From contig OY970209.1 of assembly GCA_963713855.1 (NCBI GenBank), forward strand, positions 320,001 to 384,000: a DNA stretch of 64,000 bases. The letters are read 5' to 3'. Shown here piece by piece: positions 17,535-36,246 of this stretch. Numbering within the stretch: position 1 is the first letter of the stretch; each line of letters begins with the position of its first letter. Under the pieces are notes generated by a model. It worked only from the letters and a program-made list of their open reading frames with translations. It was not told the origin of the DNA and did not search any database. Source of the stretch: an uncultured bacterium. Its GTDB lineage: Bacteria > Babelota > Babeliae > Babelales > Babelaceae. A program made the translations under genes and the position numbers.

Positions 17535-17543
17535 AGCGACTGT

Positions 17544-19382: not shown

Positions 19383-19511
19383 AAGATATTTATTCAATAA
19401 ATAAATATACTTAATACTTGACTTTTATATATATGAATTTGCTAATATAAATTATAATAGTGTAGACAATGAAGAGAACGTTTAGTAAATAAATGTTGAG
19501 CAAGGAGTTTT

Positions 19512-19724: not shown

Positions 19725-19746
19725 CTTTAAACTAAGGAAGATAGGA

Positions 19747-19965: not shown

Positions 19966-19982
19966 TCGAGACGTGAATAACG

Positions 19983-20372
19983 ATGGGAAAAATTAGCTGC
20001 ACGCTCTTTGCGGCACTATGTCTAGGGTTTGCGTTGACAAAGGCAGACTCAAATCTACGAGTGATTGAGCCTTGTGTAAAGCCAAATACGAGTTGCATCT
20101 TGGGTTTTTCATGTAAACCGGGCGAGCCGTGTTCTATGGCAAAATTAAAAGGCTATTGCGATCAGCAAAATGAGTGCATAATCTTAAACGAGAGATGTTC
20201 GTCTGATCCACAGAGCAATATCGTAAACGGACGCTATATGCGCACTGCTGACGGTAGTATCGTGTGCGCTGTTGAGGGACAATCATGCAGCACAAATCCG
20301 CTTGATGCAAGTGCTGCTAAAGGCATTTACGAACTATCTCATTACGGTATGGTCTGCTCAACAAAAGGCTAG
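19983..20372 (+). CDS. Secreted Cys-rich repeat protein
   Basis: Signal peptide ending TKA; 10 Cys in the mature part, with two C-S-x-x-P...G-x-Y...VC units. Confidence 0.75.
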   Translation: MGKISCTLFAALCLGFALTKADSNLRVIEPCVKPNTSCILGFSCKPGEPCSMAKLKGYCDQQNECIILNERCSSDPQSNIVNGRYMRTADGSIVCAVEGQSCSTNPLDASAAKGIYELSHYGMVCSTKG

Positions 20373-20424
20373 AATTACGTTCGGTGGGCCTTATTCATGA
20401 TAAGACCTCGTCAATTGATCGCAG

Positions 20425-20650
20425 GAATTTTCACCCACTCTCAGGCTCGGATTTAGGTTTTACTCAACACTTATAGAAGTAGGAGTTTCGTATAATCCTC
20501 TCCAACCACCGTTGGACAATGGCTTGTCCAAGGTCCGCAAGGTTAGGATAACCGTAGTTTTACAGAGTATCAGTTTCCAACGCTATGGGTTTTTTACGTG
20601 GTTAACCCTTCCCGTAGTCCCTACGGTACAATTACCTTACGAGTAATTCT
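20425..20650 (-). ncRNA. Putative structured RNA / IS200-IS605 TnpB omega-RNA-like or right-end relic, no transposase
   Basis: Dense inverted repeats (20501-20516, 20512-20531, 20587-20608, 20612-20626, 20630-20648); minus strand reads GTACCGTAGGGACTACGGGAA...GAAACTCCTACTTCTATAAGTG, similar from memory to IS605-family 3' ends. Confidence 0.45.
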
Positions 20651-20708
20651 TGAAAACCAAATTTATTTTGACAACATTAAAAATTTGTAAAGCGCAAATC
20701 TAGCAGTG

Positions 20709-21443
20709 CTAGATAACTGCGTTATTGCTATCCAGCTCACCAGCTCTAGAGCTGGTGGGAGAATTCCGCGAATTCTTGTTAAAATCTTTAAGCCAATAGT
20801 CAAGATTGTGAGTTTGGGTTGTCACCGATTTATCATACTGTAGCGTTTGCCAGCTATAGGTAATTGAAAGCGCGGATTTTTCGTAGCCAAGTTTATGCCA
20901 TAATGGTGTTAAAGACCGATAGTTTTCTGGTTTTAAAGGATGTGCCTCATAGCTTTCTGTTACAAAGCAGCAAGCTGTAAAATGTAATCTTTTTGCATAC
21001 TCCTCAATAGCCGCGAAAAGTTTTCTTGCAAGGCCCTTGCCTCGATGCTTGGGCACAACGATAACTTCAGAAACGTAGTAATAAGAACTTGGCTTTAATC
21101 CAGCACTTTCAAACAACTCGATTGAACCTTTAAAGTGCTCATCGTAGTTACAAAATGGTGCTCCCGTTATAAATCCCACAGGCTCATCTTTTAAATAAGC
21201 AACAACTACAGCACTGTTTGGTAACTTTGTTAACCAATCGAGGTACACCTTTTCTTCATCGATAGAGCCCTCATATAAGTAGGGATATTCGCGAAAATAA
21301 GTGAGCCGCAGATTTGAGACGAATGGAAGAACGTCCTTACTCTCATTCACCAAAAGAAGCCTAACGTCAAAAGATTCCGGTTGCGCTCTTAACAAGAAGC
21401 TGTTCGCCAAATAGAAGCTTAAACAAGTAATTTTTTTAAGCAT
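20709..21443 (-). CDS. GNAT acetyltransferase with N-terminal signal-like segment
   Basis: LRLTYFREYPYLYEG, SEVIVVPKHRGKGLA acetyl-CoA motif, LWHKLGY. Confidence 0.88.
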   Translation of the reverse strand: MLKKITCLSFYLANSFLLRAQPESFDVRLLLVNESKDVLPFVSNLRLTYFREYPYLYEGSIDEEKVYLDWLTKLPNSAVVVAYLKDEPVGFITGAPFCNYDEHFKGSIELFESAGLKPSSYYYVSEVIVVPKHRGKGLARKLFAAIEEYAKRLHFTACCFVTESYEAHPLKPENYRSLTPLWHKLGYEKSALSITYSWQTLQYDKSVTTQTHNLDYWLKDFNKNSRNSPTSSRAGELDSNNAVI

Positions 21444-21669
21444 GCATACTTCCAGAGTCCATATTAGTTAACATAAACGTTACCAAAACCGTGCGGATTA
21501 ACAATATACACACTTTTATCTAAAAACACTCGAAATTTATAAACCTAGTCAATCAAACTGATCACTCGATCTTACATCGGGCAACACTGCACCGGAGAAT
21601 AAATTCTTGTTTTTAAAGCTAACAATATGGTATATTCAGATTAATAATTTAATTCAAATAGGAGTCTTA

Positions 21670-22047
21670 ATGATGAATAGCATTAAAGTCAGTATGATGA
21701 TCATGGCAGGCATGTTCTTAAGCGTTCCTCAAAGCCTATTTTCGACTGGGGCTCTTTTTTTTAAAAATGCGAGCAGAAGTCAAACTGTAGAAGTAACCGT
21801 TGATTATGACTACCCCAAGATCTGCAAAGCTGACCAATTGACCCTAGGCCCATTTTATCAAGAAGTGATCCATCGCCCGCTTTTAAAGCCCAAAAGCTGG
21901 TGCCCAATAGCAAAAATTACTCTTAAGCGCGAGGATATAGCTCCTATGGTGCTCACTTCGAAAGAGCTGCCATTTACAGGTGACGTGTGGATCGAGATTG
22001 ACAATGATGAAGTTAAGGTCGAGCCGATTGATTGGGGCGCTGAATAA
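21670..22047 (+). CDS. Secreted hypothetical protein
   Basis: AGGAG SD; signal peptide; beta-rich mature part with a Cys pair. Confidence 0.65.
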   Translation: MMNSIKVSMMIMAGMFLSVPQSLFSTGALFFKNASRSQTVEVTVDYDYPKICKADQLTLGPFYQEVIHRPLLKPKSWCPIAKITLKREDIAPMVLTSKELPFTGDVWIEIDNDEVKVEPIDWGAE

Positions 22048-22128
22048 GAGTTTTTACATTAGTTTCGTGGGGGCGGCACCCTTACGTCAGCCCCATCAAT
22101 TTTTCAGGAATCAAAGTTGTTGTTAACA

Positions 22129-22587
22129 CTACTTTCTGGCTTTTAACTTCTGAGAAATTTTAACAAAATCACTCGAATCTTTCTCAGACAATGATTCAAA
22201 GAATTTCATGTCAGACTTCTCAACGGCGGGTAATGCTTTGCTCAAAATGTTAAATCCCCGCTCAGTTAATGAAGGATTTTTGCTTCTTTCATTTACAGAC
22301 CTTGTCCTTTGTATAAGGTTTTTAAGTTCCAATCCCCGTATTATCTGAGATGTTGTATTAGGATCTAACCCGCTCGCTTTGCTAATATCTATTTGATTAA
22401 TAGTCCTTCCCTCCCTTGTAAGCCAAGCAGTCGTTGCAAGCACAACAAATTGAGGATGAGTAAGATCAAAAGGCTTTAACGTCTTTTCGATGTTACTTCT
22501 CCAGGCAAGGCTTACATGCCACAATAAATAGCCGGGGCTTTCTTCGGGGCCTTTAAACAGCGTTAACTTCTCGATAGTATTGCTCAT
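22129..22587 (-). CDS. MarR-family transcriptional regulator
   Basis: SPGYLLWHVSLAWR, LTHPQFVVLA, wHTH TSQIIRGLE..LIQR, LTERG. Confidence 0.92.
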   Translation of the reverse strand: MSNTIEKLTLFKGPEESPGYLLWHVSLAWRSNIEKTLKPFDLTHPQFVVLATTAWLTREGRTINQIDISKASGLDPNTTSQIIRGLELKNLIQRTRSVNERSKNPSLTERGFNILSKALPAVEKSDMKFFESLSEKDSSDFVKISQKLKARK

Positions 22588-22606
22588 AAATCAATATCTA
22601 AATTTT

Positions 22607-22978
22607 TTAAGCACTCTTGTGCATTTTATAGACTCTTATTCGGTGACCATCTGGATCTAGAAATACAAACGTACGCCCAAAGTCCATGTCAGTCGGATCC
22701 TGAGCAATAGTAACTTCTTTTTTTCCCAAAAATTCGTACATTTTATCCACATCATCCGCTGGAAAACAAAGTTCCATGGCCCCCGCTGCAACTTCTACTC
22801 TAGGCTCTGCAGTATACCATGACCAAAGGCCAAGCTTAACTCCGTTTTCTAGAACAAATAACGCGAAAGTAGGCGATTTTTCGACCGGTTTTAAACCGAG
22901 AATATCACTATAAAATGTTGCGCTTATTTGCGGGTTTTCAACAAACAGAAGGACATATCCTATACTGTGTTTAAACAT
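22607..22978 (-). CDS. VOC/glyoxalase-bleomycin-resistance family protein
   Basis: SATFYSDILG, PTFALF, MDFGRTFVFLDPDGHRIRV. Confidence 0.92.
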   Translation of the reverse strand: MFKHSIGYVLLFVENPQISATFYSDILGLKPVEKSPTFALFVLENGVKLGLWSWYTAEPRVEVAAGAMELCFPADDVDKMYEFLGKKEVTIAQDPTDMDFGRTFVFLDPDGHRIRVYKMHKSA

Positions 22979-23022
22979 AACATTCTCCCTAAGAAAAAAT
23001 AGTAAAACAAATCATACGTATA

Positions 23023-23050
23023 AATATAATACGTATACGTATAATGTCAA
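23023..23050 (-). promoter_or_regulatory. Sigma70 promoter with palindromic operator in the spacer (likely MarR site)
   Basis: Minus strand TTGACA-16-TATATT; perfect palindrome ATACGTATACGTAT at 23029-23042. Confidence 0.7.
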
Positions 23051-23398
23051 GCAAAAAAAGAAGCACTGAACAATACCTCATGGAATGCATTCCAGATTAT
23101 TAATCGATCACCTCGAGTTTTCGTTTTCGCTACTTAAGATTTATTGCAGCTATTTAGTAATAGTAAGCGTCGGTAGAGCACACAACCAGCTGCGTTGCCC
23201 TCTTTGACTATTCTGTAATATTCGCTATTATCTATATCGTTCAGCTTTTTATCAAACATATTCGGTATGAATTACAGTCAAATTTTTCTGAGCTACACTA
23301 ACTTTTCTCTTCTACTCCCGTAAGGGGGTATCTTTTACTTTTTTAACTTATCTACTTTTTTGAGTTCGTTATAATTACCCATCGTTAGGGAGCTTTTT

Positions 23399-23818
23399 AT
23401 GTTTGAAAATAGAATTGTTGCAGTCTTGAATGAAAAAATAGAGCCGGGTGTTGCATTAAACGCTGTAGCTCACATGTCTTTCGGAATTGGTGCATATCTA
23501 GGCAAGGAAAACGCGCTTCTGAGCGAATATATTGATTCAGAAGGCAATTTTCACTCGCGGCTAACCCAAATGCCAATAATTATTCTTAAAGCAAACAATA
23601 ATAAGATCAAAGAAACAGTCAAGGCTGCGAAAGAACAGGGAATCTACTTTGTCGATTTTATTGACACTATGAGATTGCCAGGCGGAGGAACCTACGTTGA
23701 ACAAATCGACGAAACCAAAAAGAAGAAATTTGATGAGCTGACCTATTTTGGGGTCATGCTTTTTGGACCCAGTGAAAAGGTTTCGCCGTTGACCAGAAAA
23801 TTTTCCTTATGGAAATGA
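23399..23818 (+). CDS. DUF2000-family protein (PTH2-like fold)
   Basis: GVALNAVAHMSFGIG, YIDSEGNFH, PIIILKA, ELTYFGVMLFGP...LTRKFSLW. Confidence 0.82.
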   Translation: MFENRIVAVLNEKIEPGVALNAVAHMSFGIGAYLGKENALLSEYIDSEGNFHSRLTQMPIIILKANNNKIKETVKAAKEQGIYFVDFIDTMRLPGGGTYVEQIDETKKKKFDELTYFGVMLFGPSEKVSPLTRKFSLWK

Positions 23819-24282
23819 AAAGTTGGAAAGTTTTAACATGTCCTCTTTTATTTCACTCTTTGCTTTTATGTCAGCTCAATGCGATATTGCTGGATGCTAA
23901 CGTAATAACGAGCGAGCAATACATTGCGAAGAGAAAATTGTGCGTTAAGGTTTACAATGATACCCCCTTTCCTGTCGAAGTAAGACTGGGGGTATTGAAA
24001 TTGGCATGGAACAAAACGCTCTTCAAGGAAATAGTTGGAGGAAATCTTTTTTTTAAAGAAAAGCATATCAAGCCTCAAGAAAGAGCTGAACTAAGCTTCT
24101 CTTACGAAGTCTTCGAGGATGAGAATATAAGAAATCAGGATTTACCGATTCTTGAAATTGAAAAAGACCTTGAGCACGCGACTGCCACTCTAAAGCGAAC
24201 AGACAAATGTACCGAGATTACAGTCTCTCAAGTATACAAAGAACAGCTTGAGCGCAAAAAAAGTCTGGCAAGCTTGCGCTAA
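23809..24282 (+). CDS. Secreted hypothetical protein
   Basis: Overlaps DUF2000 stop; signal-like N-terminus ending LNA. Confidence 0.6.
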   Translation: MEMKSWKVLTCPLLFHSLLLCQLNAILLDANVITSEQYIAKRKLCVKVYNDTPFPVEVRLGVLKLAWNKTLFKEIVGGNLFFKEKHIKPQERAELSFSYEVFEDENIRNQDLPILEIEKDLEHATATLKRTDKCTEITVSQVYKEQLERKKSLASLR

Positions 24283-24420
24283 CAATAAGCCGTTTATATA
24301 TGAGACCCATCAATTGGATTGCGAGCGTAATTCATTCATTAATTAAACTCACTTGGCCTGGAGAATATTTCCGTCAATAGTTTACTAGAACGTAAAGTGA
24401 TATTGAGATTCCCATAATAC

Positions 24421-25383
24421 CTATGCCCCCAAGACTGGCCCACAATATACAGGCGGGCACAACTCAGTATCATCTAACTTAACTTGAGGCATCAGTATTG
24501 CTACAGTTACGCTTGCAGAACAGCTCGGGCCATTCACATTGCTTATAGCGCAAAAGGGAGCGTTTTCCGAACAAGTCACTGCAACTGGCCTCCATTGAGG
24601 TGAAGGATGAGATACTCCTTTGTTAAAATCTGCTGTATCGACCGAAAACACAGTTACGTCGCCTGAGCCGTTAGCAGTTATAAGACAATTGTCATATGCG
24701 GAGTAATCCATTGATCGTGGATCATTAGATCCAGAGGGTAAATCAGAAGAAGTGCCTTGATTTGGCATTCCTTCAGTAACGATAAATACGGTAACATCGT
24801 TTGAAGCTGCATTAGACGTGGCAAGGTGCCCATCGGACGAAAATTGAATGGTTACCGGTGCTATCGATGAGGGGGGGGTAAAGCGTATGAAATACCTTTA
24901 CCAAGCTTTCCATCCTTTACAGGAAATATCGTTATAGCTGAGGAATCTTTGTTTGATGTCACAAGAAATAATCCATCGGGCGAAAATTTCAATGAACCTG
25001 CATGACTCGAGCCCGGGGGCAATCTATAGAGCTCGCGTGCATTTAATGTACCTTCCCAATTAATCGTAAACACAACAACGTGATCACCATTAGCTGTGGC
25101 AAGAAGTCTACCGTCAGGTGAAAATGATATTGCAAGTGGATTACTGGAACCCGGGTGCAAAGGATAGGCAGTACCATTGCTTAATATCCCATTAATGAGA
25201 GTAAACAGATTCACGTTCAAAGAGTTAAAGTTTGCGGTAGCTAGATAATTATTTTTTGAAGCAATTGCATTGGGGCAAGGAACATCGGGATGTAACGGAT
25301 AGGTTTGTTAAAGGTGAAAAGGCACAACTATTAGATAAAGCAGTGCAGGTAAAAGTAAGCATTAAGCTTAACAGAATAAGCAT
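24421..25383 (-). pseudogene. Frameshifted secreted beta-propeller (lactonase/WD40-like) gene
   Basis: Signal peptide from ATG 25383; blades Y-x-LP-x-GSxxP..FSPDG..LATAN in three frames; shifts near 25305 and at G8 24871-24878. Confidence 0.75.
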
Positions 25384-25707
25384 TTATTACGTCCTTTAAA
25401 AAACCGATTTAATTCTTTTTCAAAGAGTTGTCGAGCAAACGCTACCACCGGATTTTGATCTTGGCAATTCTCGAGTAGATTGACCAATACTACCTTGCAA
25501 ATTATCCATCACTTAATCGAATAATTTTACATGCAATTCTTCGTTGAGCGTCAAAATGCCACTTTAAGCCACAAGTATCAAGTAATTGACGGGCTACGGA
25601 GAAACATTAATACTTTTTTGGGTCAACGCTGATTACGCTTATTTTGTCAAATATAATTTTTAACTATATAATTGTTGCACAAGCATCGACGAGAATATGG
25701 GTTATCT

Positions 25708-27063
25708 ATGAGATTGAAAACGTGCTCTATACTAGAAAGCATACTATTTGCGATAGTGGTTTCTTGGAGTTCTATGGAGCTTGCAATGGAACATCATCGC
25801 GATAGCCGCGACCTTAATAGCTCAACGACATCTACCCATAAAAAGTCCTCGAAGTCTTTCAAAAAAGCAAAGAGGCGCACACAAACTCATCACCAAAACT
25901 ACGGCGACAAGCCACTTCACCTAGCAGCCATGAACGGCGATGAAAAAGCTATTGTCGATTTGATAGCCACTGATCATTCTCTAAGCGATGTAAATAGCAT
26001 GGGTGAGGTGCCTTTACATCTTGCAGCACTTGCTGGCAAGGTGGAGCTCATTGAAACATTTATAGAAAGTGGCGTTGACGTTAACGTCCCAAGGACCGAT
26101 GGAGAAACACCCTTACACCTTGCAGCGCTTAAGGGCCAGGATGAAGCAATAGAAATCCTCATTAAACATGGCGCTCTAGTTGATGCTGAAAGATATGATA
26201 GAGAGACGCCATTGCATTTAGCATGTCTTACTGGTCAAGGAGGAGCAATAAAAAAGCTACTAGATCATGACGCAAACATTGATGCTCGCAATAAGCGCGG
26301 TCAAACGCCCTTGCATTTAGCAGCACTGAATCGTCATAAAAAGGCGATGAAAATGCTAATAAAAGCGGGCGCAGATATTAATTGTATTGACGCAAAAGGT
26401 CAAACTCCCCTCGATCTTGCCAGAACAAACAAAGAGCTTGCTAGCTGGATACGTTTACGCGGTGGTCAATCAGCATATGAACTATCTTTGGCGCGAGATG
26501 ATAACCAAGAGCAAGAGAGCAATGCCAAGGATTGTTGGGTTACACCTGCTCATAAGTGTCATGGGCGTCGCATACCGCAGCGCGCCCAAGAAGTTGCCCC
26601 TAATAACAAAATTGGCCTTCATGTGAAAAAAGAAAAAGAAATAGTCCAGTCCAAAAAAGGCATCGGGGAAAAAACAGCTTCATCAGTGTTGAAAAAAGGG
26701 GCAGAAAAAGGAAAACAGCTATCAAAGAACAAGGTAAGGCAGGCTAAACGCCAAGAGTTAACACACCAGCAACAATTACCCGATGTTCAGCCAGTCAAGG
26801 GGGGAAGCCCGGCACCAAAACCAACTGTTATGCCAGATGCAACTCTAAAAGACGCTGCTCAACACCGATTACCCCTACAAACTCAGGATGAGACTATTAA
26901 GCCAAGGGCCCAAGGATCTAGTGCCTTTGCAAGGTGGAAAAAGTGGCTTGGTCTTGGCGTTTTGACAGCGGCTGCTGGCTGGATGGCCAAAGAGGCGTAT
27001 GATAGAGCGCCGATGAATAAGGCCGCACTAAACGATACACTGGAGTCAACGCCATCAGCCTAA
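25708..27063 (+). CDS. Ankyrin-repeat protein with Lys-rich linker and C-terminal TM anchor
   Basis: Five to six GxTPLHLAA repeats; WLGLGVLTAAAGWMA near the C-terminus. Confidence 0.92.
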   Translation: MRLKTCSILESILFAIVVSWSSMELAMEHHRDSRDLNSSTTSTHKKSSKSFKKAKRRTQTHHQNYGDKPLHLAAMNGDEKAIVDLIATDHSLSDVNSMGEVPLHLAALAGKVELIETFIESGVDVNVPRTDGETPLHLAALKGQDEAIEILIKHGALVDAERYDRETPLHLACLTGQGGAIKKLLDHDANIDARNKRGQTPLHLAALNRHKKAMKMLIKAGADINCIDAKGQTPLDLARTNKELASWIRLRGGQSAYELSLARDDNQEQESNAKDCWVTPAHKCHGRRIPQRAQEVAPNNKIGLHVKKEKEIVQSKKGIGEKTASSVLKKGAEKGKQLSKNKVRQAKRQELTHQQQLPDVQPVKGGSPAPKPTVMPDATLKDAAQHRLPLQTQDETIKPRAQGSSAFARWKKWLGLGVLTAAAGWMAKEAYDRAPMNKAALNDTLESTPSA

Positions 27064-27162
27064 AGACCAACATTTCAGATGCCTGACTAGAGTAAACGTT
27101 GCTTGACTTATTCGCTCAATCGACCATAATGAATTACTACTAGTATATTTATATGGAGCTTT

Positions 27163-27570
27163 ATGAAAAAATCGTATCTTTTACTAACTCTTATGGCAGC
27201 TTTGGCATACTCTGTATCTGCTAGATCGGAAAACAAGATTGTATCCTTAGAAGAAGAAATACAACAATTGGAGCAAGAACTTACTCAAACTGACCAAAAG
27301 CTCAAAGATGTGGAAAGACGAGGGGATGAAATTCAAAAACACTACGAAGAAGGACAGCACAACGGCCTCTTGACACTAAAAAATCGCGAGATACAAAGCC
27401 TCGTGAATGAGCAAGATGCTCTTTTAGAAAAGAGGGAAAAAATCGTCGAGAAACTCAACGGCAAGTACCGCACATCATCTCTAAAAAGATTTAATAAGTT
27501 TGCCGCAATAGCCGGCGTATCAACACTTGTTGTTGGCCTTATTACCCTGATAGCCTCGTGTCGCAGGTAA
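27163..27570 (+). CDS. Secreted coiled-coil protein with C-terminal TM anchor
   Basis: Signal peptide ending VSA; heptads; FAAIAGVSTLVVGLITLIA then CRR. Confidence 0.75.
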   Translation: MKKSYLLLTLMAALAYSVSARSENKIVSLEEEIQQLEQELTQTDQKLKDVERRGDEIQKHYEEGQHNGLLTLKNREIQSLVNEQDALLEKREKIVEKLNGKYRTSSLKRFNKFAAIAGVSTLVVGLITLIASCRR

Positions 27571-27753
27571 AATAACCTAACTCGTTTTTCTAGCTAGAGT
27601 GCATTTAGAGTTTCCCATTACAGAATTATCATAGGTAAAACGCAGATTCTTCGTTTAAAGAGCTCAGCACCGTATTGATAGTGGTTGACATATCAGTTTA
27701 TTCTTTGATACTTTTGCAAACAATATATGTAGTTGGCAAGGACCGGAATCTGC

Positions 27754-29385
27754 ATGGCAAAAGACGCTGAGAATGTAAGAGAGGTTACTTATCAGCTTCT
27801 GCGAGAAGTTGGTATCAAAACAGTTTTTGGAAATCCTGGATCAACGGAAGAACCCTTTCTGAAAAATTTTCCATCAGATTTTCGTTATGTGCTAGGCCTT
27901 CAGGAAGCATCAGTAATAGCTATGGCTGATGGTTTTGCTCAAGCGACGGGCGGACCTGCATTAGTAAATATCCACACTTCAGGGGGATTAGGAAACGCCA
28001 TGGGCAACCTAATCACGGCCTATCAAAACAAAACCCCACTAATTGTAACTGCTGGCCAACAAACACGTGAAATGTTACTCATAGAGCCCATGCTCACAAA
28101 CGTGACTGCCACAAGCGTACCGCGTACATGGGTAAAATGGACTTATGAACCAGCACGCGCCCAAGACGTTCCTGCAGCCTTCATGCGCGCGATCGCAACG
28201 GCTTTGCAACCACCGGCTGGTCCAGTTTTTCTTTCTCTTCCAATGGATGATTGGGAAAAACCTTGCACGAAAGCAGTGGTACGTACCGTAAGCCGCCGTT
28301 GCGCTCCAGATCCCCAGCGCCTAGAAGACTTTGAAAAAATCTTACATCAAGCATCATCGCCTGTACTCGTTTATGGCGCCGCCATAGATAGGAATAACGG
28401 CTGGAAGCAGGCAATTACCTTTGCTGAGATGATCGGAGCTCCAGTGTGGGCAGCACCGCTATCTGAACGTGTCTCTTTTCCTGAAAATCACCGCCTTTAC
28501 TGCGGTGTTTTACCGCCAGCTATCGGTCTGCTTTCAAAAAAATTGGAAGGCCATGACCTTGTACTCGTGGTCGGTGCACCAATATTTCGTTACTACCCTT
28601 ATGTAGCAGGATCATATTTGCCGAATGGCGCACGCTTGCTGCATCTGACAGATGATCATTCGGAAGCTGCTCGTGCACCGGTTGGAGATAGCCTACTGGG
28701 CGATGTTGTTTTATCTTTGAGTGGCCTCATTGAATTGTTAAGCAAAAATAAGTTAAAAGTAACCAAATCCAAAATCATGGATTGCACGAAACCTGATGCA
28801 ACGTATTCGATAAAAACATCAGACGATGGCCTTCTTACAGCTAGCCAAGTGTTTAATGCTCTGAACGCTGTAAAACCTGATAACGCTGTTTTGATCGAAG
28901 AGTCGCCTTCGAATCTTGCCGAATTACGCATGCAATGGCCAATTACTAAACCGGCCTCTTTTTTTACGTTTGCAAGTGGCATACTGGGTTGGGGTCTACC
29001 CGCATCCGTAGGAATCGCGCTTTCAGAGCGCGACTCTGGAAGCAACCGCCCAATTATTCTGATAATTGGCGACGGCTCATTGCAATATTCTATTCAGGCG
29101 CTCTGGACGGCAGCGCAACTAAATCTTCCAATTTTGATCGTTGTTATGCGTAACGGTGAATATGCGATTCTCAAATCTTTTGCAGAGCACGAAAATACTC
29201 CAGGTGTGCCAGGCCTAGATCTTCCAGGCCTAGATATAGTGTCTCTTGCTAAAGGGTATGGCTGCGATGCCACTCGCTTGGATACTCTAGACGGTATTAA
29301 GAAAGCTGCGCGGGAAGCATTTAATAAATCCAAGCCAACAGTCCTTGAGATTCCTATTTCTCCCAAATTGATCCCCTTAATTTAA
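27754..29385 (+). CDS. mdlC: Benzoylformate decarboxylase-family ThDP enzyme
   Basis: VFGNPGSTEEPFL, GLQEASVIAMADGFAQ, NIHTSGGLGNAMG, GDGSLQY...NGEY, PGLDLPGLD. Confidence 0.88.
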   Translation: MAKDAENVREVTYQLLREVGIKTVFGNPGSTEEPFLKNFPSDFRYVLGLQEASVIAMADGFAQATGGPALVNIHTSGGLGNAMGNLITAYQNKTPLIVTAGQQTREMLLIEPMLTNVTATSVPRTWVKWTYEPARAQDVPAAFMRAIATALQPPAGPVFLSLPMDDWEKPCTKAVVRTVSRRCAPDPQRLEDFEKILHQASSPVLVYGAAIDRNNGWKQAITFAEMIGAPVWAAPLSERVSFPENHRLYCGVLPPAIGLLSKKLEGHDLVLVVGAPIFRYYPYVAGSYLPNGARLLHLTDDHSEAARAPVGDSLLGDVVLSLSGLIELLSKNKLKVTKSKIMDCTKPDATYSIKTSDDGLLTASQVFNALNAVKPDNAVLIEESPSNLAELRMQWPITKPASFFTFASGILGWGLPASVGIALSERDSGSNRPIILIIGDGSLQYSIQALWTAAQLNLPILIVVMRNGEYAILKSFAEHENTPGVPGLDLPGLDIVSLAKGYGCDATRLDTLDGIKKAAREAFNKSKPTVLEIPISPKLIPLI

Positions 29386-29630
29386 TCAAATTTTCATTTA
29401 ATTGCGCTTATTTTTATAAATTGGGTGGATTTTTGAACATTGCCTTAAGGAAAAGTAAGCTCAAATCGTTTAATCGATAAATAGCTTTTAGAATGAAAAG
29501 AATAACCATTTTCTTCTACTTGGTTACCGATCAGTCTGCTCACGGGTTCAAAAAGTGTGACAGTGAGCGCTATAAGCTAATACCCAATCAGATTCTAGAG
29601 AATTAATTCTTTTGGTAGAACCCTATGGCT

Positions 29631-30806
29631 CTAGTTAATCTGCGGCTTTTCGCTTAGGTCATGCTTTTTTAAGCATTCCCGTAGATAGAGTTGTGTTTCA
29701 GGAAAACTTGGGTTACGTTCGGTCAGAAACGGTTTTACTTGATAGGTCAATTCATGATGTTCCAGAGTGGAACGTCTTTGTTCGGGATCAAGCTGCGCAT
29801 AAACTAAATCGCTCCGGCCTTGCTTAATCAATTGATCACAAGCAAAAAGATCCGCTTCGCGCTCCCCCAAACGGTAATAGGGGTTTTCCAAAAGAATATC
29901 AATGGCCTTAATTATTATAATGCCAAGTATATAAGCAGCCAATCCAAAAGCTCCTTGAAGATAAAGAAAACCGCCAGCTATATATCCAGGTATTCCAGTC
30001 ATCTGCACCTTAATAGCATGATCATGGTAAAGGTGTCCAATCTCATGATATAATGTAAATGCATCAAAGCTATCGGCGTTAAAAAATAGTGATGACAAAA
30101 CGATGACCCTAAATGGGGGAATTAGCATGGCCACAGCGGCATAAGGCGCATCAACATCAGGATTTTCCAAGACCATCACATCATGAGGATAATCGACTTT
30201 CTTAAGCGCACGCGCAACTCGTCGCCGATTGAGACGCGATGCTTCTTTATAACCCGCTGCTAAAAAAGCTTTCTTTACAAACTCACGCGCTTTATCATAG
30301 CCAACATTCAAAACATAAGGCACGATCGCAAAAATGTTACTTACTTCAATAGTACCAAGCCCCGAAAGTATATACTGTAAATATGACATAGTCTCGGTGC
30401 TCTTTACTGGATCCGCTATATCTTTTGATCTCAAATGTTTGCCGGTTTTACTCTCCCACTCGGTGCTGCGAGCCTTTACAATACCTTCAAATTGCTCTGC
30501 AAGCTCTTTGGCTGGACTTTGTAAGTAAAAGTAGTTTGACAGCTTAAATAAGACTCGATTAGCTTCACGAGCGATGTCCTCGTCATAGTTTGGTTGCTTT
30601 TGATACTCATTGAGCGCACTTTCAAGTTGTTCATGGATCTCATTTGCCCGTGGTTGTCCAACCGTGAAGATAATCTTCTTGGTTTGTGCCACATCAAGGA
30701 AGGTTTGAGCAAACTTGATCAATTGTGTAAGGCGCGATGAGATCGTAAAGTTTTCTTGAGCGCTTAGAAAGGAACAGGCGAATAAAAACAATAAAACATA
30801 TCTCAT
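29631..30806 (-). CDS. Secreted/membrane M48-like zinc metalloprotease
   Basis: Signal peptide; HEIGH zinc motif, TM segments, EREADLFA third-ligand motif. Confidence 0.78.
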   Translation of the reverse strand: MRYVLLFLFACSFLSAQENFTISSRLTQLIKFAQTFLDVAQTKKIIFTVGQPRANEIHEQLESALNEYQKQPNYDEDIAREANRVLFKLSNYFYLQSPAKELAEQFEGIVKARSTEWESKTGKHLRSKDIADPVKSTETMSYLQYILSGLGTIEVSNIFAIVPYVLNVGYDKAREFVKKAFLAAGYKEASRLNRRRVARALKKVDYPHDVMVLENPDVDAPYAAVAMLIPPFRVIVLSSLFFNADSFDAFTLYHEIGHLYHDHAIKVQMTGIPGYIAGGFLYLQGAFGLAAYILGIIIIKAIDILLENPYYRLGEREADLFACDQLIKQGRSDLVYAQLDPEQRRSTLEHHELTYQVKPFLTERNPSFPETQLYLRECLKKHDLSEKPQIN

Positions 30807-31083
30807 TGAAATCTCTCTCTAAATTGCAATAATCGATTATAAATGCATCATATCAGATATCAATTTCAAATTTCAATATATTGCGCTTCGATTTGGCTAT
30901 AGGACAAAGTTACAAAGAGCTCCCCCGAGACAAAAAACAACTAAGATGTCCTATGAGTGCTATTTATCATTATGATTTTGTTTCTTGAAATAAGCTTTTG
31001 CGTTGATTTAAGGTGTCTGATATAGGCGTGGTAGTAATTTGGGTTAATTATAAAGTCGGGGCTTTCCCGCGCAAGGGGTGATT

Positions 31084-31878
31084 ATGAAAAAAAGAATTCT
31101 CGTTACTGGTGCCGGATCTGGATTTGGTGAAGGCACTGCTATCGGTCTTGCCAAAAAAGGGCATGACGTTATTGCTGGTGTGCATATATGGCCACAAGCT
31201 ACCAGAATGCGTAACGAGGTAAAATCGCTTGGGCTTCGTAATTTGCGTGTAGAAAAACTTGATATTCTTGATCCTGTAGACGTTGCTAACGCATTACATT
31301 GGGACATTGATATTCTTGTCAACAATGCTGCGATTGGTTATGGTGGCCCTGTTTCGGAAATTCCATTGGAGCTCATTCGCCAAACATTTGAGACAAACCT
31401 TTTTGGTAGTCTCGATCTGGCCCAGAAATTTATACGCAAGTTTGTCGACCAAAAACGCCCGGGCAAAATTGTATTTACAAGCTCAATTGCCGGACTATTG
31501 CCCGCACCTGGCTTTGGCCCCTATGCTGCCTCAAAACATGCCTTAGAGTGCATTGCTGAAAACCTCCAGCACGAATTAAAGCCTTACAATATCCAGGTCC
31601 AAACAATCAACCCGGCTGCGTATCGTACAGGATTTAATGATACTATGTGCGAAACAACATCACACTGGATGGATGACAAAAAGAACTTTCACAAAAAGGC
31701 TGATGTTGAAAAACTTTTAAAGCCAACCTTGGACAATCAGCTTGACCCGAAGGAGATGATTGAGGCAATGATTTCGATCATTCCTGCTGATTCTGGTAAA
31801 TTCCGCAATGTAGTTCCAAAAGCTGCCGAGGATTTTCTTAAAAAGTGGCAAGCAGATGCCTGGAAAAACGAGATCTAA
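31084..31878 (+). CDS. Short-chain dehydrogenase/reductase
   Basis: TGAGSGFG, NNAAIG, YAASK. Confidence 0.95.
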   Translation: MKKRILVTGAGSGFGEGTAIGLAKKGHDVIAGVHIWPQATRMRNEVKSLGLRNLRVEKLDILDPVDVANALHWDIDILVNNAAIGYGGPVSEIPLELIRQTFETNLFGSLDLAQKFIRKFVDQKRPGKIVFTSSIAGLLPAPGFGPYAASKHALECIAENLQHELKPYNIQVQTINPAAYRTGFNDTMCETTSHWMDDKKNFHKKADVEKLLKPTLDNQLDPKEMIEAMISIIPADSGKFRNVVPKAAEDFLKKWQADAWKNEI

Positions 31879-31892
31879 TATTAAGGAAATAA

Positions 31893-31991
31893 TGGCGTCG
31901 AATTATAGACATGTTCAGAAACGGTGAAGTAGATTTTGATTTTACATCGAATGCTATTCAGACTGTTCTTTCAACTCTCCATATCGAATAA
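31893..31991 (+). repeat. Putative attL scar 1: tRNA-Glu 3'-end match plus recombinase-like C-terminal tail
   Basis: TGGCGTC identical to 36169-36175; reads WRRIIDMFRNGEVDFDFTSNAIQTVLSTLHIE*; related copy at 34865. Confidence 0.55.
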
Positions 31992-32313
31992 ATAGAAAAA
32001 ACTGCTACGAAGTTAATTAGCTTATATCTTTAAAAGCTATATTAGCGCCGAGGATGGTCATACCACATCAGAGGTCAAAAAAATATCTCTTCTTAAGAAG
32101 TGCTTAATACTAATATTGTTACATTTTCAACAATGTGAGGCTGCACTTCAAGCTAAATATGAAGATCAGACAAATTCTTGGAGATTTTCTCTTCAAGTGC
32201 TATTATATACAATTATTTAGCCATTACAAAAACGCTATAACAGAGCATCATCTCGCCAATATAGAGTATATTAATCAATTTTTTAATTTATTTAACCTGA
32301 GTTCTACAAGAGT

Positions 32314-34848
32314 ATGTTCTTCAATCGAATTATTACGATTTGTACGTTTCTTTTTGCCATAACTGCATTTGCTCAAGAAACGCCAAAACCGATCCAACTT
32401 CTGCCACACCAACAGTATCCGATTGATTATCTGGTCAAGAACAAAAATGCAAAGGGCCTGATTGTCAATCATTATATGGGCACTGGAAAAACTTACCTAG
32501 GAATTGGATTTGCGGAGCGCTTTCCCGATAAGTCCATTGTGATTTTGGCGCCCAGATTTATTGAAGCACATTGGCAACAACACCTCAGAGATTTTCCTGC
32601 CAAGGACCTGAAGCGATACCAATTTGTTTCTTACAACAATGCTCCCAAATTGCTTTTGAACAAGGACCTTAGCAACACCGTCGTAATCATGGATGAAGTT
32701 CATAACCTCATCAAAATGATAAAATCGCCAAACCCAGAGGAAAATCGTCGCCTTAGCGATCTCTATATCCATTTGCGCAGCGCATATAAAATTCTCGCAT
32801 TATCAGGCACGCCGATTTACAACGATGAATACGATTTTGCTTATTTGATTAACCTCATCTCCGGAAAAGATTTGATGCCTTTTAACGAGGAACAGTTTCG
32901 AATTGATTATACACGCATCAAGAAAGGTCGCTCATTTTGGCGCGGCTATGTCTTTGAAAGCAATATCTTAAAGCAGGTCCTTCCGCTGATCGTGGGGGCG
33001 GCCGTGGCGCCACTTGTAATCGTCGCTGGACCGGAAGTTGCAGCGCCTTTGGGAATCGCGGGCGTAGTGGGTGCGGTTCTTATTTTTCCACTGGAAACCA
33101 ATTGGATAGCTCCCATCGAAACACATCCTCTAAGAGATCTCGATGCCAAGAAATTTGAACCCTTCATTTCACGGTACGTTTCATTTTACGAAATCGAGAA
33201 CCTTGACATGTCCGACTTTCCATCAAAAACGATGCACGTCGAAGACGTCGACTACAACACTGAACAGTTCTGGTTCTTTTTGAACTTCGCCGAAAAGAGC
33301 TTAGGAAATAAAGGTCTTGCACGACTGTACAAAGACATCGATCCCAATCTTGAACAAAGCTATTTGACACTAAACACGACCGTGCTTCAAGACCGCTTGG
33401 CAAGCACCATTGGATCTGGACGCGAAATTGGTAACCTTGAATTTTTAGGCGAACACGGCCTCATTGAAGCGCCCAAGTTTGAACGAGTGCTTCGCAAGAT
33501 GCAGGCACAAGGTATGCCCAAATCAGTTGTGTATTCGAATTATTTTGAAAATGGCACTTTAGCCTTCGCGCGCTTCCTCGATCGAAAGGGCTTAAACAAC
33601 GCCTATGCCATTTTGCGACCAGATATGCCGGCCAACACCTTTGCCGAAGTAATTCAAAAATATAACGAGGGCCTCGTAAAGATCCTCTTGATGCATCCAG
33701 AAATCACCGAGGGAATCTCACTCAAGGGAACACGTCAATTTCATGTGCTCGAGCCTGTAAGCAATCTTACCGTTCTTAACCAGGTTGTTGCACGCGCCGT
33801 ACGCTACCAATCACATGCAATGCTTGCCCCTTCAGAGCGCCATGTCGACGTCTATATGTGGAAATCTGTGATTGCTTCAGCAAGTCTTCAAACACTGAAA
33901 TTGCAGAAGTTCAATTGGTTTAAGCGCTACTCGGAAATGAGTGACTGGAGCAATTTTGGACAAGGCATTTCGCAAATCGATAAAAACTATGATCGAAAGC
34001 GACTCTCACCGGATACTCAAAGCTATCTTCATTTGGAATCAGTGAACCAGAATATTGAAAACCTCAAAAACATCATGAAGCAACAGTCGATTGAAAAGAG
34101 TAACGGGACAAAGAAAGCGCAACTTCAGCCAACTACAGCACTCTCGGACGTCCAAACAGCCTTTGAGCTTGATCCCATTATACTTCCAAAGACAAATTTT
34201 CGCGTGTTTTGGAATCTCAATCAAAAATTGGTCAGACACGATCAAAGTCACGCACTTACCAATGGGTTTGGTTTCAACTGTGAAGTTGAAATCCCGCTTT
34301 GGGAGCATCTTTCATCTGGCTTCTATATTGAAGACTACTGGGGACAAAAACTTAAAGAGCCCATGCCCGACCTCATTGATCCGGCTGGGCACTTGTTACG
34401 GGAACATGGACCTCGCCAAAATGTTCTCGGTTTTGGTGGATTTTTGAAAACACAGCAGCGTTTGCCTCCAACTTTTGGCAACTCGGCCTTGATCCTTCGC
34501 GTACCACTGGGCATCGAAATTGTCTTTGGTCAAGCGCTCATTCCACTCATAAAAGATCAAAAAGACCTCGACCAGTTCTTGAGACCTGGTTGGCGATCCA
34601 TCCGCACTGGCTTTTCATCTGCCAAGCTTGGCTATGGCCTAACAAGCGGTCTTTCTGTCGGATTCGAATATTATCCGATGGAATTTGTGGGTTTATACGT
34701 CGATGGTGGTTATCGAGTGTCATACCAGACGTTCCCTATTACTGTCTCGCAAGAAAACGAAACCACGAATCAAAACACGTTTGAGGGGTTTCGCGGGTAT
34801 TTGATCCAGGGATGGAATGTTTCGATCGGTATTAAGCTAACGTATTGA
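32314..34848 (+). CDS. Signal peptide + SF2 (SNF2/NPH-I-like) helicase + C-terminal beta-barrel fusion protein
   Basis: Signal ending AFA; HYMGTGKT, DEVHN, LSGTP, EGISLKGTRQFHVLEP, QVVARAVRYQSH; amphipathic strands ending VSIGIKLTY. Confidence 0.85.
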   Translation: MFFNRIITICTFLFAITAFAQETPKPIQLLPHQQYPIDYLVKNKNAKGLIVNHYMGTGKTYLGIGFAERFPDKSIVILAPRFIEAHWQQHLRDFPAKDLKRYQFVSYNNAPKLLLNKDLSNTVVIMDEVHNLIKMIKSPNPEENRRLSDLYIHLRSAYKILALSGTPIYNDEYDFAYLINLISGKDLMPFNEEQFRIDYTRIKKGRSFWRGYVFESNILKQVLPLIVGAAVAPLVIVAGPEVAAPLGIAGVVGAVLIFPLETNWIAPIETHPLRDLDAKKFEPFISRYVSFYEIENLDMSDFPSKTMHVEDVDYNTEQFWFFLNFAEKSLGNKGLARLYKDIDPNLEQSYLTLNTTVLQDRLASTIGSGREIGNLEFLGEHGLIEAPKFERVLRKMQAQGMPKSVVYSNYFENGTLAFARFLDRKGLNNAYAILRPDMPANTFAEVIQKYNEGLVKILLMHPEITEGISLKGTRQFHVLEPVSNLTVLNQVVARAVRYQSHAMLAPSERHVDVYMWKSVIASASLQTLKLQKFNWFKRYSEMSDWSNFGQGISQIDKNYDRKRLSPDTQSYLHLESVNQNIENLKNIMKQQSIEKSNGTKKAQLQPTTALSDVQTAFELDPIILPKTNFRVFWNLNQKLVRHDQSHALTNGFGFNCEVEIPLWEHLSSGFYIEDYWGQKLKEPMPDLIDPAGHLLREHGPRQNVLGFGGFLKTQQRLPPTFGNSALILRVPLGIEIVFGQALIPLIKDQKDLDQFLRPGWRSIRTGFSSAKLGYGLTSGLSVGFEYYPMEFVGLYVDGGYRVSYQTFPITVSQENETTNQNTFEGFRGYLIQGWNVSIGIKLTY

Positions 34849-34864
34849 GGGATCGACTTACCCT

Positions 34865-34941
34865 ATGTTCAGAAATGGCAAAATCTAAATTTTACGTTGA
34901 GCCAGATTCAGACAGCTTTTTCAGCGCTAGACATCGAGTAA
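34865..34941 (+). repeat. Degenerate second copy of the recombinase-tail relic (putative att scar 2)
   Basis: ATGTTCAGAAA..ATTTTAC..ATTCAGAC..TTTCA..ATCGAxTAA aligns with 31911-31991; reads MFRNGKI / NFTLSQIQTAFSALDIE*. Confidence 0.6.
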
Positions 34942-35298
34942 GTAGCTAAGAGTCAGCAACATACTAACCGAGCCCAAGATCATTGCTGTTTATCTATACG
35001 CACCCCTCTGGCAATAGCCCAGCTTATACATCCTAAACTGCTATTGACCAAGCATTTACCAAACTCTTTGGTATTGCACAAGATTTACGTTGCACTTTTT
35101 TTCCATATGAACATTAGACAGCAGGTAATAACGAGTAAAAAATATCTTGTTTTAACGGGGTCGGAAGAAAACCATTGAAGGTACTTCAATAATCAAAACT
35201 GGCGTGAGCCGGCGGACGGGGCTAAACAACAATCTGTTGTAAGACCTCTCAAAATTTGATACTATCTAAATATATAAAGATTGGGTTTAAGCAGTTCC

Positions 35299-35634
35299 AT
35301 GAAAAGACAAATAATTGAGGCCAGAGAATTTATGAAAGAAATAGACAGCCTCATTGCTAAGAAAAAGCTAATAAATAGCGATTTTGAGACTTTAAAAAAC
35401 TATCTTGCTCAAAATCCTACTGAGGGCGATTTGATCAGAGGTAGTGGAGGTCTTAGAAAAATAAGGTTAAAAGCCCCAGACAAAGGTAAAAGTGGCGGAT
35501 TCAGGGTATACTATTACGATGATGCCAATAATAGAATTATCTGGCTATTATGGCTGCACCCAAAGAGTGAACAAGAAAATATTACAGCTCAAGAAAAAAG
35601 TATTTTAAAAAAGACCATAAAGGAATTGCTATGA
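35299..35634 (+). CDS. Type II toxin, RelE/HigB family
   Basis: NPTEGDLIRGSGGLRKIRL, GKSGGFRVYYY, PKSEQENIT. Confidence 0.92.
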   Translation: MKRQIIEAREFMKEIDSLIAKKKLINSDFETLKNYLAQNPTEGDLIRGSGGLRKIRLKAPDKGKSGGFRVYYYDDANNRIIWLLWLHPKSEQENITAQEKSILKKTIKELL

Positions 35635-35912
35635 GCAAACTTTTTGAGAAGCTTATGAAAGGCCTAGAAGATGTCGCTGACCATAAAAAAGGCAAGCTCA
35701 ATCTACGCACAACAACTATCGAAATTTCCGATTCAGCATCTAAACAAAAAAGAGCATCTCGCAGTTCTTCGACAAGCAAAAAAGCCTTAAACAAAGTTCA
35801 TGTGCCTTTAAATATTGAGATTCCGTCCGGTCTTCATAGAAGATTGCAGGAAGAAGCTTCTGAATGTGGCATAAGCTTTAACTCCCTTATCATAGAAAAA
35901 CTAGCAAGATAA
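35631..35912 (+). CDS. Putative antitoxin: HigA-like N-terminus fused to HicB-like RHH C-terminus
   Basis: ATGA overlap with toxin; MSKLFEKLMKGLEDV...GKLNLRT; LNIEIPSGLHRRLQEEASECGISFNSLIIEKL. Confidence 0.7.
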   Translation: MSKLFEKLMKGLEDVADHKKGKLNLRTTTIEISDSASKQKRASRSSSTSKKALNKVHVPLNIEIPSGLHRRLQEEASECGISFNSLIIEKLAR

Positions 35913-35919
35913 AGCAGAA

Positions 35920-36150
35920 TTGATTATGAATAAGCAATTAGCAGATCAGCTCAATATTGACTTAGATCCGGGTCTGCTTCTTAAAGACCTTCGATTGCAC
36001 AAAAAATATACGCAAGCATATCTATCTCAACTAATTGGCACATCAGCAAACAATATCTCCTCAATGGAGCGAGGCAAACGTCCTATTGGCAAAAAAACAG
36101 CCCAAAAACTTGCAGCTATATTCAAAATTAAATATCAATGTTTTTTATGA
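35920..36150 (+). CDS. XRE-family helix-turn-helix protein
   Basis: LKDLRLHKKYTQAYLSQLIGTSANNISSMERGKRPIGKKTAQKLA. Confidence 0.88.
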   Translation: MIMNKQLADQLNIDLDPGLLLKDLRLHKKYTQAYLSQLIGTSANNISSMERGKRPIGKKTAQKLAAIFKIKYQCFL

Positions 36151-36168
36151 GAAGTTCCAATAAATAAG

Positions 36169-36246
36169 TGGCGTCCCTAAGGGGATTTGAACCCCTGTTT
36201 TCGCCGTGAAAGGGCGATGTCCTGGACCGGGCTAGACGATAGGGAC
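36169..36246 (-). tRNA. tRNA-Glu(TTC)
   Basis: GTCCCTA/TAGGGAC acceptor stem, anticodon loop CTTTCAC, GGTTCAAATCC T-arm, encoded CCA. Confidence 0.97.

What the first reader, a model, noticed from the sequence alone, without database searches (positions are those of the whole stretch)
31893..36175. Tandem att scars: recombinase-tail relics mark stacked integrations at tRNA-Glu
Seen: TGGCGTC at 31893 matches the antisense of the tRNA-Glu 3' end (36169-36175, including CCA). It opens a frame WRRIIDMFRNGEVDFDFTSNAIQTVLSTLHIE*. A second decayed copy (MFRNGKI/NFTLSQIQTAFSALDIE*) at 34865-34941 lies just after the helicase gene and differs largely at third codon positions. Inference: some tRNA-targeting recombinases have attP inside their own 3' end (W codon = antisense CCA), so integration strands the C-terminal tail at the far junction. 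Two tails imply two successive islands, one carrying the helicase fusion and one the TA module, with the recombinase genes since deleted.
Basis: partly seen in the sequence, partly recalled or inferred. Interest (0 to 1): 0.72.

Follow-up and report, generated by a model that had tools for sequence, protein, structure and literature searches.

The report
Stranded recombinase tails at tRNA-Glu
Two short sequences behind this bacterium's glutamate tRNA gene are the cut-off last ~31 amino acids of a DNA-inserting enzyme whose docking site likely lies inside its own gene; the outer one likely marks an old insertion at this tRNA, the inner one more likely arrived with a borrowed toxin-antitoxin piece, and whether losing the tail switches the enzyme's direction is untested.

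Summary
Observation confirmed; interpretation mostly right. Both peptides are orphan C-terminal tails of a large serine recombinase (LSR) family. Natural LSR+tail fusions exist (P0020; 28 of 123 tail-bearing proteins carry LSR body). In 27 of 45 tail-marked tRNA sites an LSR gene runs into the tRNA's antisense CCA. 50 of 55 TGG-starting tails match their own downstream tRNA end for >=6 nt (shuffled mean 11.9). Rejoined junctions form an inverted repeat centred on tRNA nt 72/71. Tails occur in 110 of 261 phylum genomes (Dependentiae), also in Patescibacteria. Scar 1 (31893) is a good far junction of a tRNA-Glu island; the same-genus relative has tail, cargo and an intact LSR there. Scar 2 is a real tail but lacks the Glu core, has Arg-type features, and occurs with the TA module elsewhere in that relative, so a second integration here is not shown. 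No LSR remnant is left in the window. Precedents: DsiB, Mx8, SSV integrases, stacked islands; I found no paper on this tRNA-tip LSR family. The scan noted the same design before at tRNA-Asp in this genome and in other genomes. This locus is a fossil; the family is the interest.

The parts
31893..31991 (+). Scar 1: far-junction half site (core TGGCGT plus right arm of attP) and orphan 32-aa LSR C-terminal tail, intact with its stop
   Evidence: DNA profile E 2.9e-13; 75% nt identity to the tail of the intact Glu island in G001
32314..34848 (+). Cargo: 844-aa SF2 helicase fusion (ResIII/Helicase_C; C-terminal third unassigned)
   Evidence: 92.7% nt identity over 32310-34851 to a gene in the tRNA-Glu region of G008, another genus; best PDB sequence hit vaccinia NPH-I, E 3.2e-9
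34852..34941 (+). Scar 2: decayed, frameshifted LSR tail lacking the tRNA-Glu core; likely came in with the TA module
   Evidence: DNA profile E 1e-6; 80% identical to G001 C2:482524-482628, homology starting exactly at att position 5
35299..35634 (+). RelE-family toxin
   Evidence: PF06296 E 1.2e-8; 92% aa identity in G001
35631..35912 (+). HicB-like small protein, likely antitoxin
   Evidence: PF05534 E 1e-5; 83% aa in G001
35926..36150 (+). HTH_3 (Xre) protein; the TA module's homology to G001 ends at 36166, 2 nt before the tRNA core
36169..36174 (+). tRNA-side core TGGCGT (antisense of CCA, discriminator, nt 72-71); no recombinase arm remains to its left
   Evidence: 23% identity of the 39 nt left of it to the LSR-arm consensus; no LSR remnant in the window
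36169..36246 (-). tRNA-Glu(ttc), the integration target

Best explanation
The two peptides are orphan C-terminal tails of a tRNA-targeting large serine recombinase, and scar 1 is likely the far junction of a now recombinase-less island that once integrated at the 3' tip of tRNA-Glu. In the free circle the LSR gene likely runs across its own attP and ends with the ~31-residue tail. Crossover at the centre of an inverted repeat (tRNA nt 72/71, inferred) lets the element supply CCA and the discriminator, so the tRNA is restored. It leaves the LSR body beside the tRNA ending in a few antisense-tRNA codons (WRP*) and strands the tail at the other end. Here the LSR body and its arm were later deleted (inferred from relatives), which should lock the cargo in place. 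Scar 2 is the same kind of tail but most likely belongs to a tail+TA module from a sister element, probably one targeting tRNA-Arg, that was recombined into the tract; a decayed second Glu junction is the alternative. Shown: family identity of the tails, LSR-to-tRNA junctions, natural fusions, core matching, protein-like conservation. Inferred: crossover position, order of events, deletion. Untested: any effect of the tail on enzyme activity.
For: Natural full-length LSR+tail protein P0020 (516 aa; tail profile 47 bits at 483-512; Resolvase, Recombinase and Zn-ribbon domains). 28 of 123 tail-bearing representatives match the LSR-body profile, some with internal deletions such as P0133 (residues 1-56 joined to 455-483 plus tail). 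Same-genus G001 has tail - 11.9 kb cargo - intact 486-aa LSR ending WRP* in tRNA-Glu. 27 of 45 tail-marked tRNA targets have an LSR end at the tRNA and 16 of 45 have two or more tails. 50 of 55 TGG-starting tails match their own tRNA end for >=6 nt, 41 for exactly 6; shuffling tRNA ends among 42 loci gives mean 11.9, max 26, 0 of 10,000 as high. The consensus left arm (27 junctions) and tail arm (34 tails) mirror each other about positions 5-6. Tail codons 11-29: pN 0.39, pS 0.73. Empty sites exist: 18 of 21 further family tRNA-Glu loci show neither tail nor LSR in the DNA held; one (G044) has two tails and no LSR, as here; one (G041) has an internally deleted LSR.
Against: No excised circle or empty allele of this organism was observed; all evidence is comparative. 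No same-species empty site was available, and accessory genes continue about 12.5 kb left of scar 1 to mutL without further scars, so scar 1 may not be the true outer edge of foreign DNA. Only 1 of the 120 best LSR homologues carries this tail family in full; several others end in different tails, and fusions may come from tandem arrays rather than circles. Tails were picked with a protein profile, which inflates apparent protein-level constraint. 18 of 73 tails with a tRNA ahead were left out of the core test because their starts are decayed or offset, and 16 of 89 had no tRNA in the DNA fetched. The Arg-type reading of scar 2 rests on the G001 orthologue and one residue; after that orthologue and an Arg tail, scar 2's next nearest tail is scar 1.
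Confidence: 0.85

Rival explanations
1. One reading: two successive integrations at tRNA-Glu, the newer element pushing the older outward, both LSR genes later deleted; scar 2's core simply decayed or was clipped by the deletion that removed the first LSR.
For: Tandem stacking at the tRNA-side junction is real in this family: LSR ends fused to a second tail are seen in L034, L134, L147, L160, L162, L166, and 7 of 64 TGG tails have an LSR arm on their left. G044 has two Glu-type tails and no LSR. Scar 2 is co-oriented and 68% like scar 1.
Against: Scar 2 lacks TGGCGT; the G001 copy lacks it too and shares the same A at position 5, so the difference predates this locus; Pro5/Tyr2 features are Arg-type; the module sits far from tRNA-Glu in G001. 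No LSR arm left of scar 2 (31% to consensus).
Confidence: 0.3
2. Integron-like cassette capture: small recombinase-less circles (half site plus a TA pair or other cargo) are inserted in trans by an LSR encoded elsewhere, so no LSR gene ever lay in these units.
For: G027 has six half sites at tRNA-Asp spaced 0.7-0.85 kb apart, each of the five units holding TA-type genes (three Pfam-recognised pairs, two with only the antitoxin recognised), with DNA conserved mostly over the first 34-60 nt. Scar 2's homology to G001 starts exactly at the inferred crossover and ends 2 nt before the tRNA core. 4 of 15 LSR-less sites repeat the host-side flank at both junctions.
Against: No circular cassette seen. 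The left flanks here share nothing (27% identity). Internally deleted LSR genes (P0133, G041, L154) show that plain deletion gives the same end state. This genome's only PF07508 gene is frameshifted.
Confidence: 0.25
3. The peptides are chance matches, or a small independent repeat or small-protein family unrelated to recombinases.
For: The 7-mer is common (74 copies); none of the listed matches in the phylum search lies in a frame longer than 192 aa.
Against: Direct in-frame fusions to LSR bodies, tRNA-specific cores and the mirrored arms; no start codon context is needed or conserved.
Confidence: 0.02

Closest known systems
Dehalococcoides ssrA genomic islands with the LSR DsiB (McMurdie et al. 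2011, PMC3146451; passages read)
   Same: LSR gene overlaps the att site at its 3' end; tandem islands stacked behind a stable-RNA gene, many without an integration module; the authors suggest DsiB may be fully functional only on the circle.
   Different: Target is tmRNA with crossover in the T-loop and a 20-bp direct repeat; six-gene module with a second small recombinase; DsiB C-termini are described as divergent. Here many tRNAs are hit at the acceptor tip with only ~6 bp identity, a single LSR, and a conserved ~31-aa tail.
Myxophage Mx8 IntP and archaeal SSV-type 'suicidal' integrases (Islander PMC4383910, passages read; Badel et al. 2020 PMC7253208, abstract and outline read; Tojo 1996 seen only as a reference title)
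   Same: attP inside the integrase ORF, tRNA target, gene split on integration, hybrid enzymes from pieces of different origin, target switching.
   Different: Those are tyrosine recombinases; SSV-type are cut into two inactive parts. Here the catalytic, recombinase, zinc and coiled-coil parts (about 483 aa) stay whole and only the last ~31 aa are lost.
Phage-type large serine integrases (SPbeta, Bxb1, phiC31, LI/A118)
   Same: Same domain order (Pfam) and fold (best Foldseek hit 9dxf, E 4.6e-19); short symmetric att with a 2-bp central crossover (inferred).
   Different: Their attP lies outside the gene and excision needs a separate RDF (PMC12286644, passages read). Islander (2015) states that serine integrases are not known to target tRNA genes, and the word tRNA does not occur in the main text of Durrant et al. 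(PMC10083194).
Tycheposon islands of Prochlorococcus (bioRxiv 10.1101/2020.12.28.424599, passages read) and SCC composite islands (recalled; also mentioned in PMC3146451 and PMC12286644)
   Same: Repeated integration at one site pushes older elements outward and leaves att scars and broken integrases.
   Different: Scars there are partial tRNAs (mostly tyrosine integrases, 910 of 937) or rlmH-end repeats; here the scar is recognisable mainly as a protein tail.
Integron cassette arrays (recalled)
   Same: Arrays of small TA-rich units, each beside a recombination half site (G027).
   Different: No IntI, no attC hairpin recombined as single strand; a trans-acting capture mechanism is not shown.

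Membership tests
Large serine recombinase (source of the tails) | Resolvase + Recombinase + zinc-ribbon domains with coiled coil | tested here: met
   P0020, which carries the tail: PF00239, PF07508, PF13408; model and Foldseek
Large serine recombinase (source of the tails) | Short att site, inverted repeat around a 2-bp crossover | tested here: met
   Mirrored consensus arms around positions 5-6; match to tRNA ends at exactly 6 nt in 41 of 55. Crossover itself not assayed.
Large serine recombinase (source of the tails) | Separate RDF controls excision | not tested
   No search for an RDF among cargo ORFs was made
tRNA-targeted genomic island (this locus) | Intact tRNA at one end, displaced tRNA-end fragment at the other | tested here: met
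   36169-36246 and 7-nt match at 31893; meaningful only with the family statistics
tRNA-targeted genomic island (this locus) | Integrase gene on board | tested here: not met
   No LSR remnant above 3 bits in the window; it is a relic, not an autonomous island
tRNA-targeted genomic island (this locus) | Empty site in relatives; cargo sporadic | tested here: met
   18 of 21 family loci without tail or LSR in the DNA held (0.5-17.9 kb); helicase only in G008, TA module only in G001 at high identity among 41 family genomes. No same-species empty allele, so the exact join 31892/36169 is not shown.
Tandem island array (two integrations here) | Each member has its own copy of the target core | tested here: not met
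   Scar 2 reads AGGGAT, not TGGCGT
attP-within-integrase systems (Mx8/SSV/DsiB type) | Integrase ORF crosses the att site in frame, and the displaced part is its natural C-terminus | tested here: met
attP-within-integrase systems (Mx8/SSV/DsiB type) | Integration changes enzyme activity | not testable with these tools
   Needs an assay
Integron | IntI tyrosine recombinase, attI, attC hairpins | tested here: not met
   The genome's single PF00589 match lies elsewhere, C1:409347-409853; sites are LSR half sites

The most novel reading that the evidence does not exclude
A widespread LSR family of Dependentiae, Patescibacteria and other small-genome bacteria carries its directionality switch in its own gene. 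The full-length enzyme made from the circle keeps a two-helix tail that blocks the RDF/coiled-coil hinge site and integrates. Integration itself amputates the tail, giving an RDF-free enzyme that can excise or act on half sites. This relaxed enzyme then shuffles recombinase-less 'half site + TA' cassettes such as 34852-36166 into integron-like stacks at tRNA tips.
Probability: 0.22. Interest if true: 0.82.

Novelty: new variant of a known kind. Interest (0 to 1): 0.5.

Why it matters
Islands of this family leave only ~6 bp of tRNA identity at the far end, so tools that look for displaced tRNA fragments should miss them. The orphan tail is a usable marker: it was found in 110 of 261 genomes of the phylum and marks where these protist parasites accumulate foreign genes, TA pairs above all. 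The family extends serine integrases to tRNA acceptor tips, which the Islander paper said was not known, and it has changed target tRNA several times, which is of use for genome engineering. It also makes a standing question testable with two constructs, LSR with and without tail: how do serine integrases without a known RDF control direction? Shin et al. (PMC12286644) speculate that C-terminal extensions may block the RDF site; here nature removes such an extension by integration. This particular locus is a dead relic and adds little beyond being a clear example.

Tried and rejected
Complex prediction of the window tail with LSR residues 260-483 gave no verdict (score 0.02, mark 0.32); it is not used as evidence either way. 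A word-index search for more full-length LSR+tail proteins returned only P0020 (few candidates, weak search). No close relative of P0020 in IMG/VR by pattern scan, and only <60% identity hits in GenBank phages, best 30-31%, so a phage carrier is not supported. Promoter and terminator scans were at shuffle level (9 vs 9.6; 5 vs 4.2). Longest-suffix search for tRNA-end repeats within 60 kb was uninformative, since chance 7-11-mers dominate. A host-flank duplication at this locus was rejected (27% identity). More scars or LSR remnants between mutL and 31893 were sought and not found. My regex classifier of LSR C-termini failed (119 labelled 'other'), so those ends were read by eye. The LSR tree is the quick tree only, the careful search did not finish: 21 target changes against a minimum of 8; well-supported branches force several origins for Asn, Asp, Gln and Arg but do not rule out one origin for Glu. 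The ESM Atlas returned nothing for the helicase or the Rep-like protein. Mageeney 2020 and Tojo 1996 were not held; Williams 2002 was not read. Literature searches without a description of this family: (open-access library only; supplements not read, and TIGER tables could list such islands).
Full report
Observation. The 7-mer TGGCGTC lies at 31893 and at 36169, where it is the antisense 3' end of tRNA-Glu(ttc). Both peptides are as described; copy 2 has a 4-nt deletion. The 7-mer alone means little (74 copies in the genome), but a DNA profile from 51 tails of other loci finds copy 1 at E 2.9e-13 and copy 2 at E 1e-6. The genome has just two clusters: these two and ten at tRNA-Asp. Differences between the copies are 6/4/10 by codon position.

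What the peptides are. The copy-1 peptide matched 15 of 41 genomes and a profile of 18 copies matched 110 of 261 genomes of the phylum; homologous recombinases are labelled Babeliales/Dependentiae by their sources. None of the listed matches was in a frame over 192 aa (151 further matches were not listed). Translating backwards from tRNA 3' ends showed long LSR frames that run into the antisense CCA as a Trp codon, at tRNA-Glu in G001 and G006, and at Gln, Arg and Asp elsewhere. The same-genus G001 has the full layout at this site: tail, 11.9 kb of cargo, a Rep-like gene, a TA pair and a 486-aa LSR ending WRP*. Of the 120 best homologues of that LSR, one (P0020) ends in this tail family in full (47 bits). 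By eye most others stop within a few residues of the Trp or continue in antisense tRNA, and about six carry other tails. Of 123 tail-bearing representative proteins, 28 match the LSR-body profile, including internally deleted forms. The peptides are therefore the natural C-terminus of the LSR.

The att site. In 58 fetched loci I found 89 tails; 73 had a co-oriented tRNA ahead in the DNA held and 16 did not. The windows were cut to extend toward the expected side, so this is not a test of sidedness. Of the 73, 55 start with TGG (18 decayed or offset ones were dropped). 50 of 55 match their own tRNA end for at least 6 nt, 41 for exactly 6, against a shuffled mean of 11.9 and a maximum of 26 in 10,000. 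The consensus of 27 LSR-side arms and 34 tails forms an inverted repeat centred on positions 5-6. I infer a serine-type 2-bp crossover at tRNA nt 72/71, with the element supplying CCA and the discriminator. Tail codons 11-29 show pN 0.39 and pS 0.73, and stops cluster at 34-36 residues, consistent with protein-level selection, though selection by a protein profile biases this. AlphaFold models the tail of P0020 as two short helices (484-491, 501-510; pLDDT about 60-74) after the zinc domain, and the body as a serine integrase. The family reaches Patescibacteria and MAGs labelled Gammaproteobacteria and Bacteroidetes: 43 of 79 loci had an LSR ending at a called tRNA, 15 of them with a tail within the 10 kb held. 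A quick tree of 68 LSRs needs 21 target changes.

This locus. Scar 1 is a good far junction: Glu core, intact frame, nearest to the G001 Glu tail. No LSR remnant lies in the window and no LSR arm flanks scar 1, scar 2 or the tRNA. Relatives show how that arises: 18 of 45 tail-marked targets lack an LSR end at the tRNA, G041 keeps LSR residues 1-97 joined to the arm, and G044 has two tails and no LSR. 18 of 21 further family loci are empty of both within the DNA held; where mutL was found it lies about 3-8 kb from the tRNA against 16.8 kb here, so accessory DNA extends left of scar 1 without further scars. The cargo is a patchwork. The helicase gene (32310-34851) is 93% identical to one in the tRNA-Glu region of G008, a different genus. 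Scar 2 plus the TA genes (34852-36166) are 80-89% identical to a stretch of G001 that is not near its tRNA-Glu. The two homologies abut at 34851/34852.

Scar 2. It lacks the Glu core. Its G001 orthologue also lacks it, shares an A at att position 5, and reads Tyr at codon 2 and Pro at residue 5. Pro5 occurs in 6 of 15 tails with Arg-type cores and 0 of 49 with Asp, Glu, Gln, Pro or Met cores, and the nearest tail after the orthologue is from a tRNA-Arg site. I put about 55% on a module borrowed from an Arg-type sister element, 30% on a decayed second Glu junction, and the rest on other routes. That homology starts exactly at the inferred crossover and ends 2 nt before the tRNA core hints at recombinase-made joints, as in the G027 array of five TA-bearing units between six half sites, but plain deletion is not excluded.

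How it likely works. Circle: LSR gene spans attP and makes the full 515-aa enzyme. Integration: tRNA restored, LSR truncated at about 483 aa plus a few antisense codons, tail stranded. Further elements enter at the tRNA side and fuse the old LSR body to a new tail (seen in several loci). Deletion removes LSR bodies; modules are exchanged between sister elements. Whether the tail affects activity is open. RDFs bind at the zinc-domain/coiled-coil junction, and C-terminal extensions have been proposed to block that site (PMC12286644, passages), so a built-in switch is plausible but untested.

Comparison and novelty. DsiB of Dehalococcoides already shows an LSR overlapping att at its 3' end with stacked islands, at tmRNA (PMC3146451, passages). 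Mx8 and SSV-type tyrosine integrases have attP in the gene (PMC4383910, passages; PMC7253208, abstract). Tycheposons show stacking with scars (bioRxiv 2020.12.28.424599, passages). Islander states that serine integrases are not known to target tRNA genes. Nine searches and passages of PMC12884075, PMC10083194 and PMC13626063 gave no description of this tRNA-tip family or its tail; subscription papers and supplements were not seen. I class it as a new variant of a known kind. My reading was formed before consulting the scan's notes; those notes report the same design at tRNA-Asp in this genome and in other genomes, which is not independent support. Interest 0.5: the family and its testable switch are of real interest, while this locus is a fossil and the two-island detail is only partly right.

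Noticed in passing
G000 C1:1470159-1496958 (L076, L077): Ten tail half sites stacked behind tRNA-Asp with a frameshifted LSR at the tRNA; cargo includes TA pairs, Hint-like toxin-type genes and an ABC transporter.
   Followed up: partly
L050:4346-8242 (G027 C8): Six half sites 0.7-0.85 kb apart, each unit holding TA-type genes, outside an intact LSR island at tRNA-Asp; the most integron-like array seen.
   Followed up: partly
window 32314-34848: Helicase with a signal-peptide-like N-terminus, a hydrophobic insert and an unassigned C-terminal third; best PDB sequence hit is poxvirus NPH-I (E 3.2e-9); 93% identical across two genera. A large-DNA-virus link is possible in a protist parasite but untested.
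   Followed up: partly
L039:7876-7961 (G008): A second copy of the last 86 bp of the helicase gene lies closer to tRNA-Glu, next to a decayed tail.
   Followed up: no
L025, L046, L131, L154 and many others, just past tRNA 3' ends: Short hairpins of about 25-35 nt follow many tRNA ends and precede 27 of 64 tails by a crude pattern; in L159 one sits inside a tail. They look like small mobile palindromes.
   Followed up: no
L161:3411-3544 and 5265-5399; L046; L036; L154: The host-side flank is duplicated (49-128 bp) at both junctions of some LSR-less units; unexplained by simple integration.
   Followed up: partly
L034:14391-15747; L050:17642-18981; L077:12142-13760: A small ORF plus a ~375-aa gene with no Pfam hit recur before the LSR in autonomous islands; likely the replication module.
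   Followed up: no
P0007, P0028, P0054, P0069, P0071, P0094; L088, L089, L106: At least two other tail families follow the same Trp in LSR fusions, so tails are interchangeable between elements.
   Followed up: no
L135:4258 and 9394-19949 (G241): tRNA-Lys/Glu pair with islands in opposite orientations on either side, suggesting an inversion or assembly artefact.
   Followed up: no
G000 C1:1152265-1152875: A second, 67% identical copy of the RelE/HicB-like module elsewhere in the genome.
   Followed up: no
window 19400-31880: About 12.5 kb of accessory genes (MarR, glyoxalase, ankyrin, TPP enzyme, M48 peptidase, SDR) between mutL and scar 1 with no scars; possibly older island cargo.
   Followed up: partly
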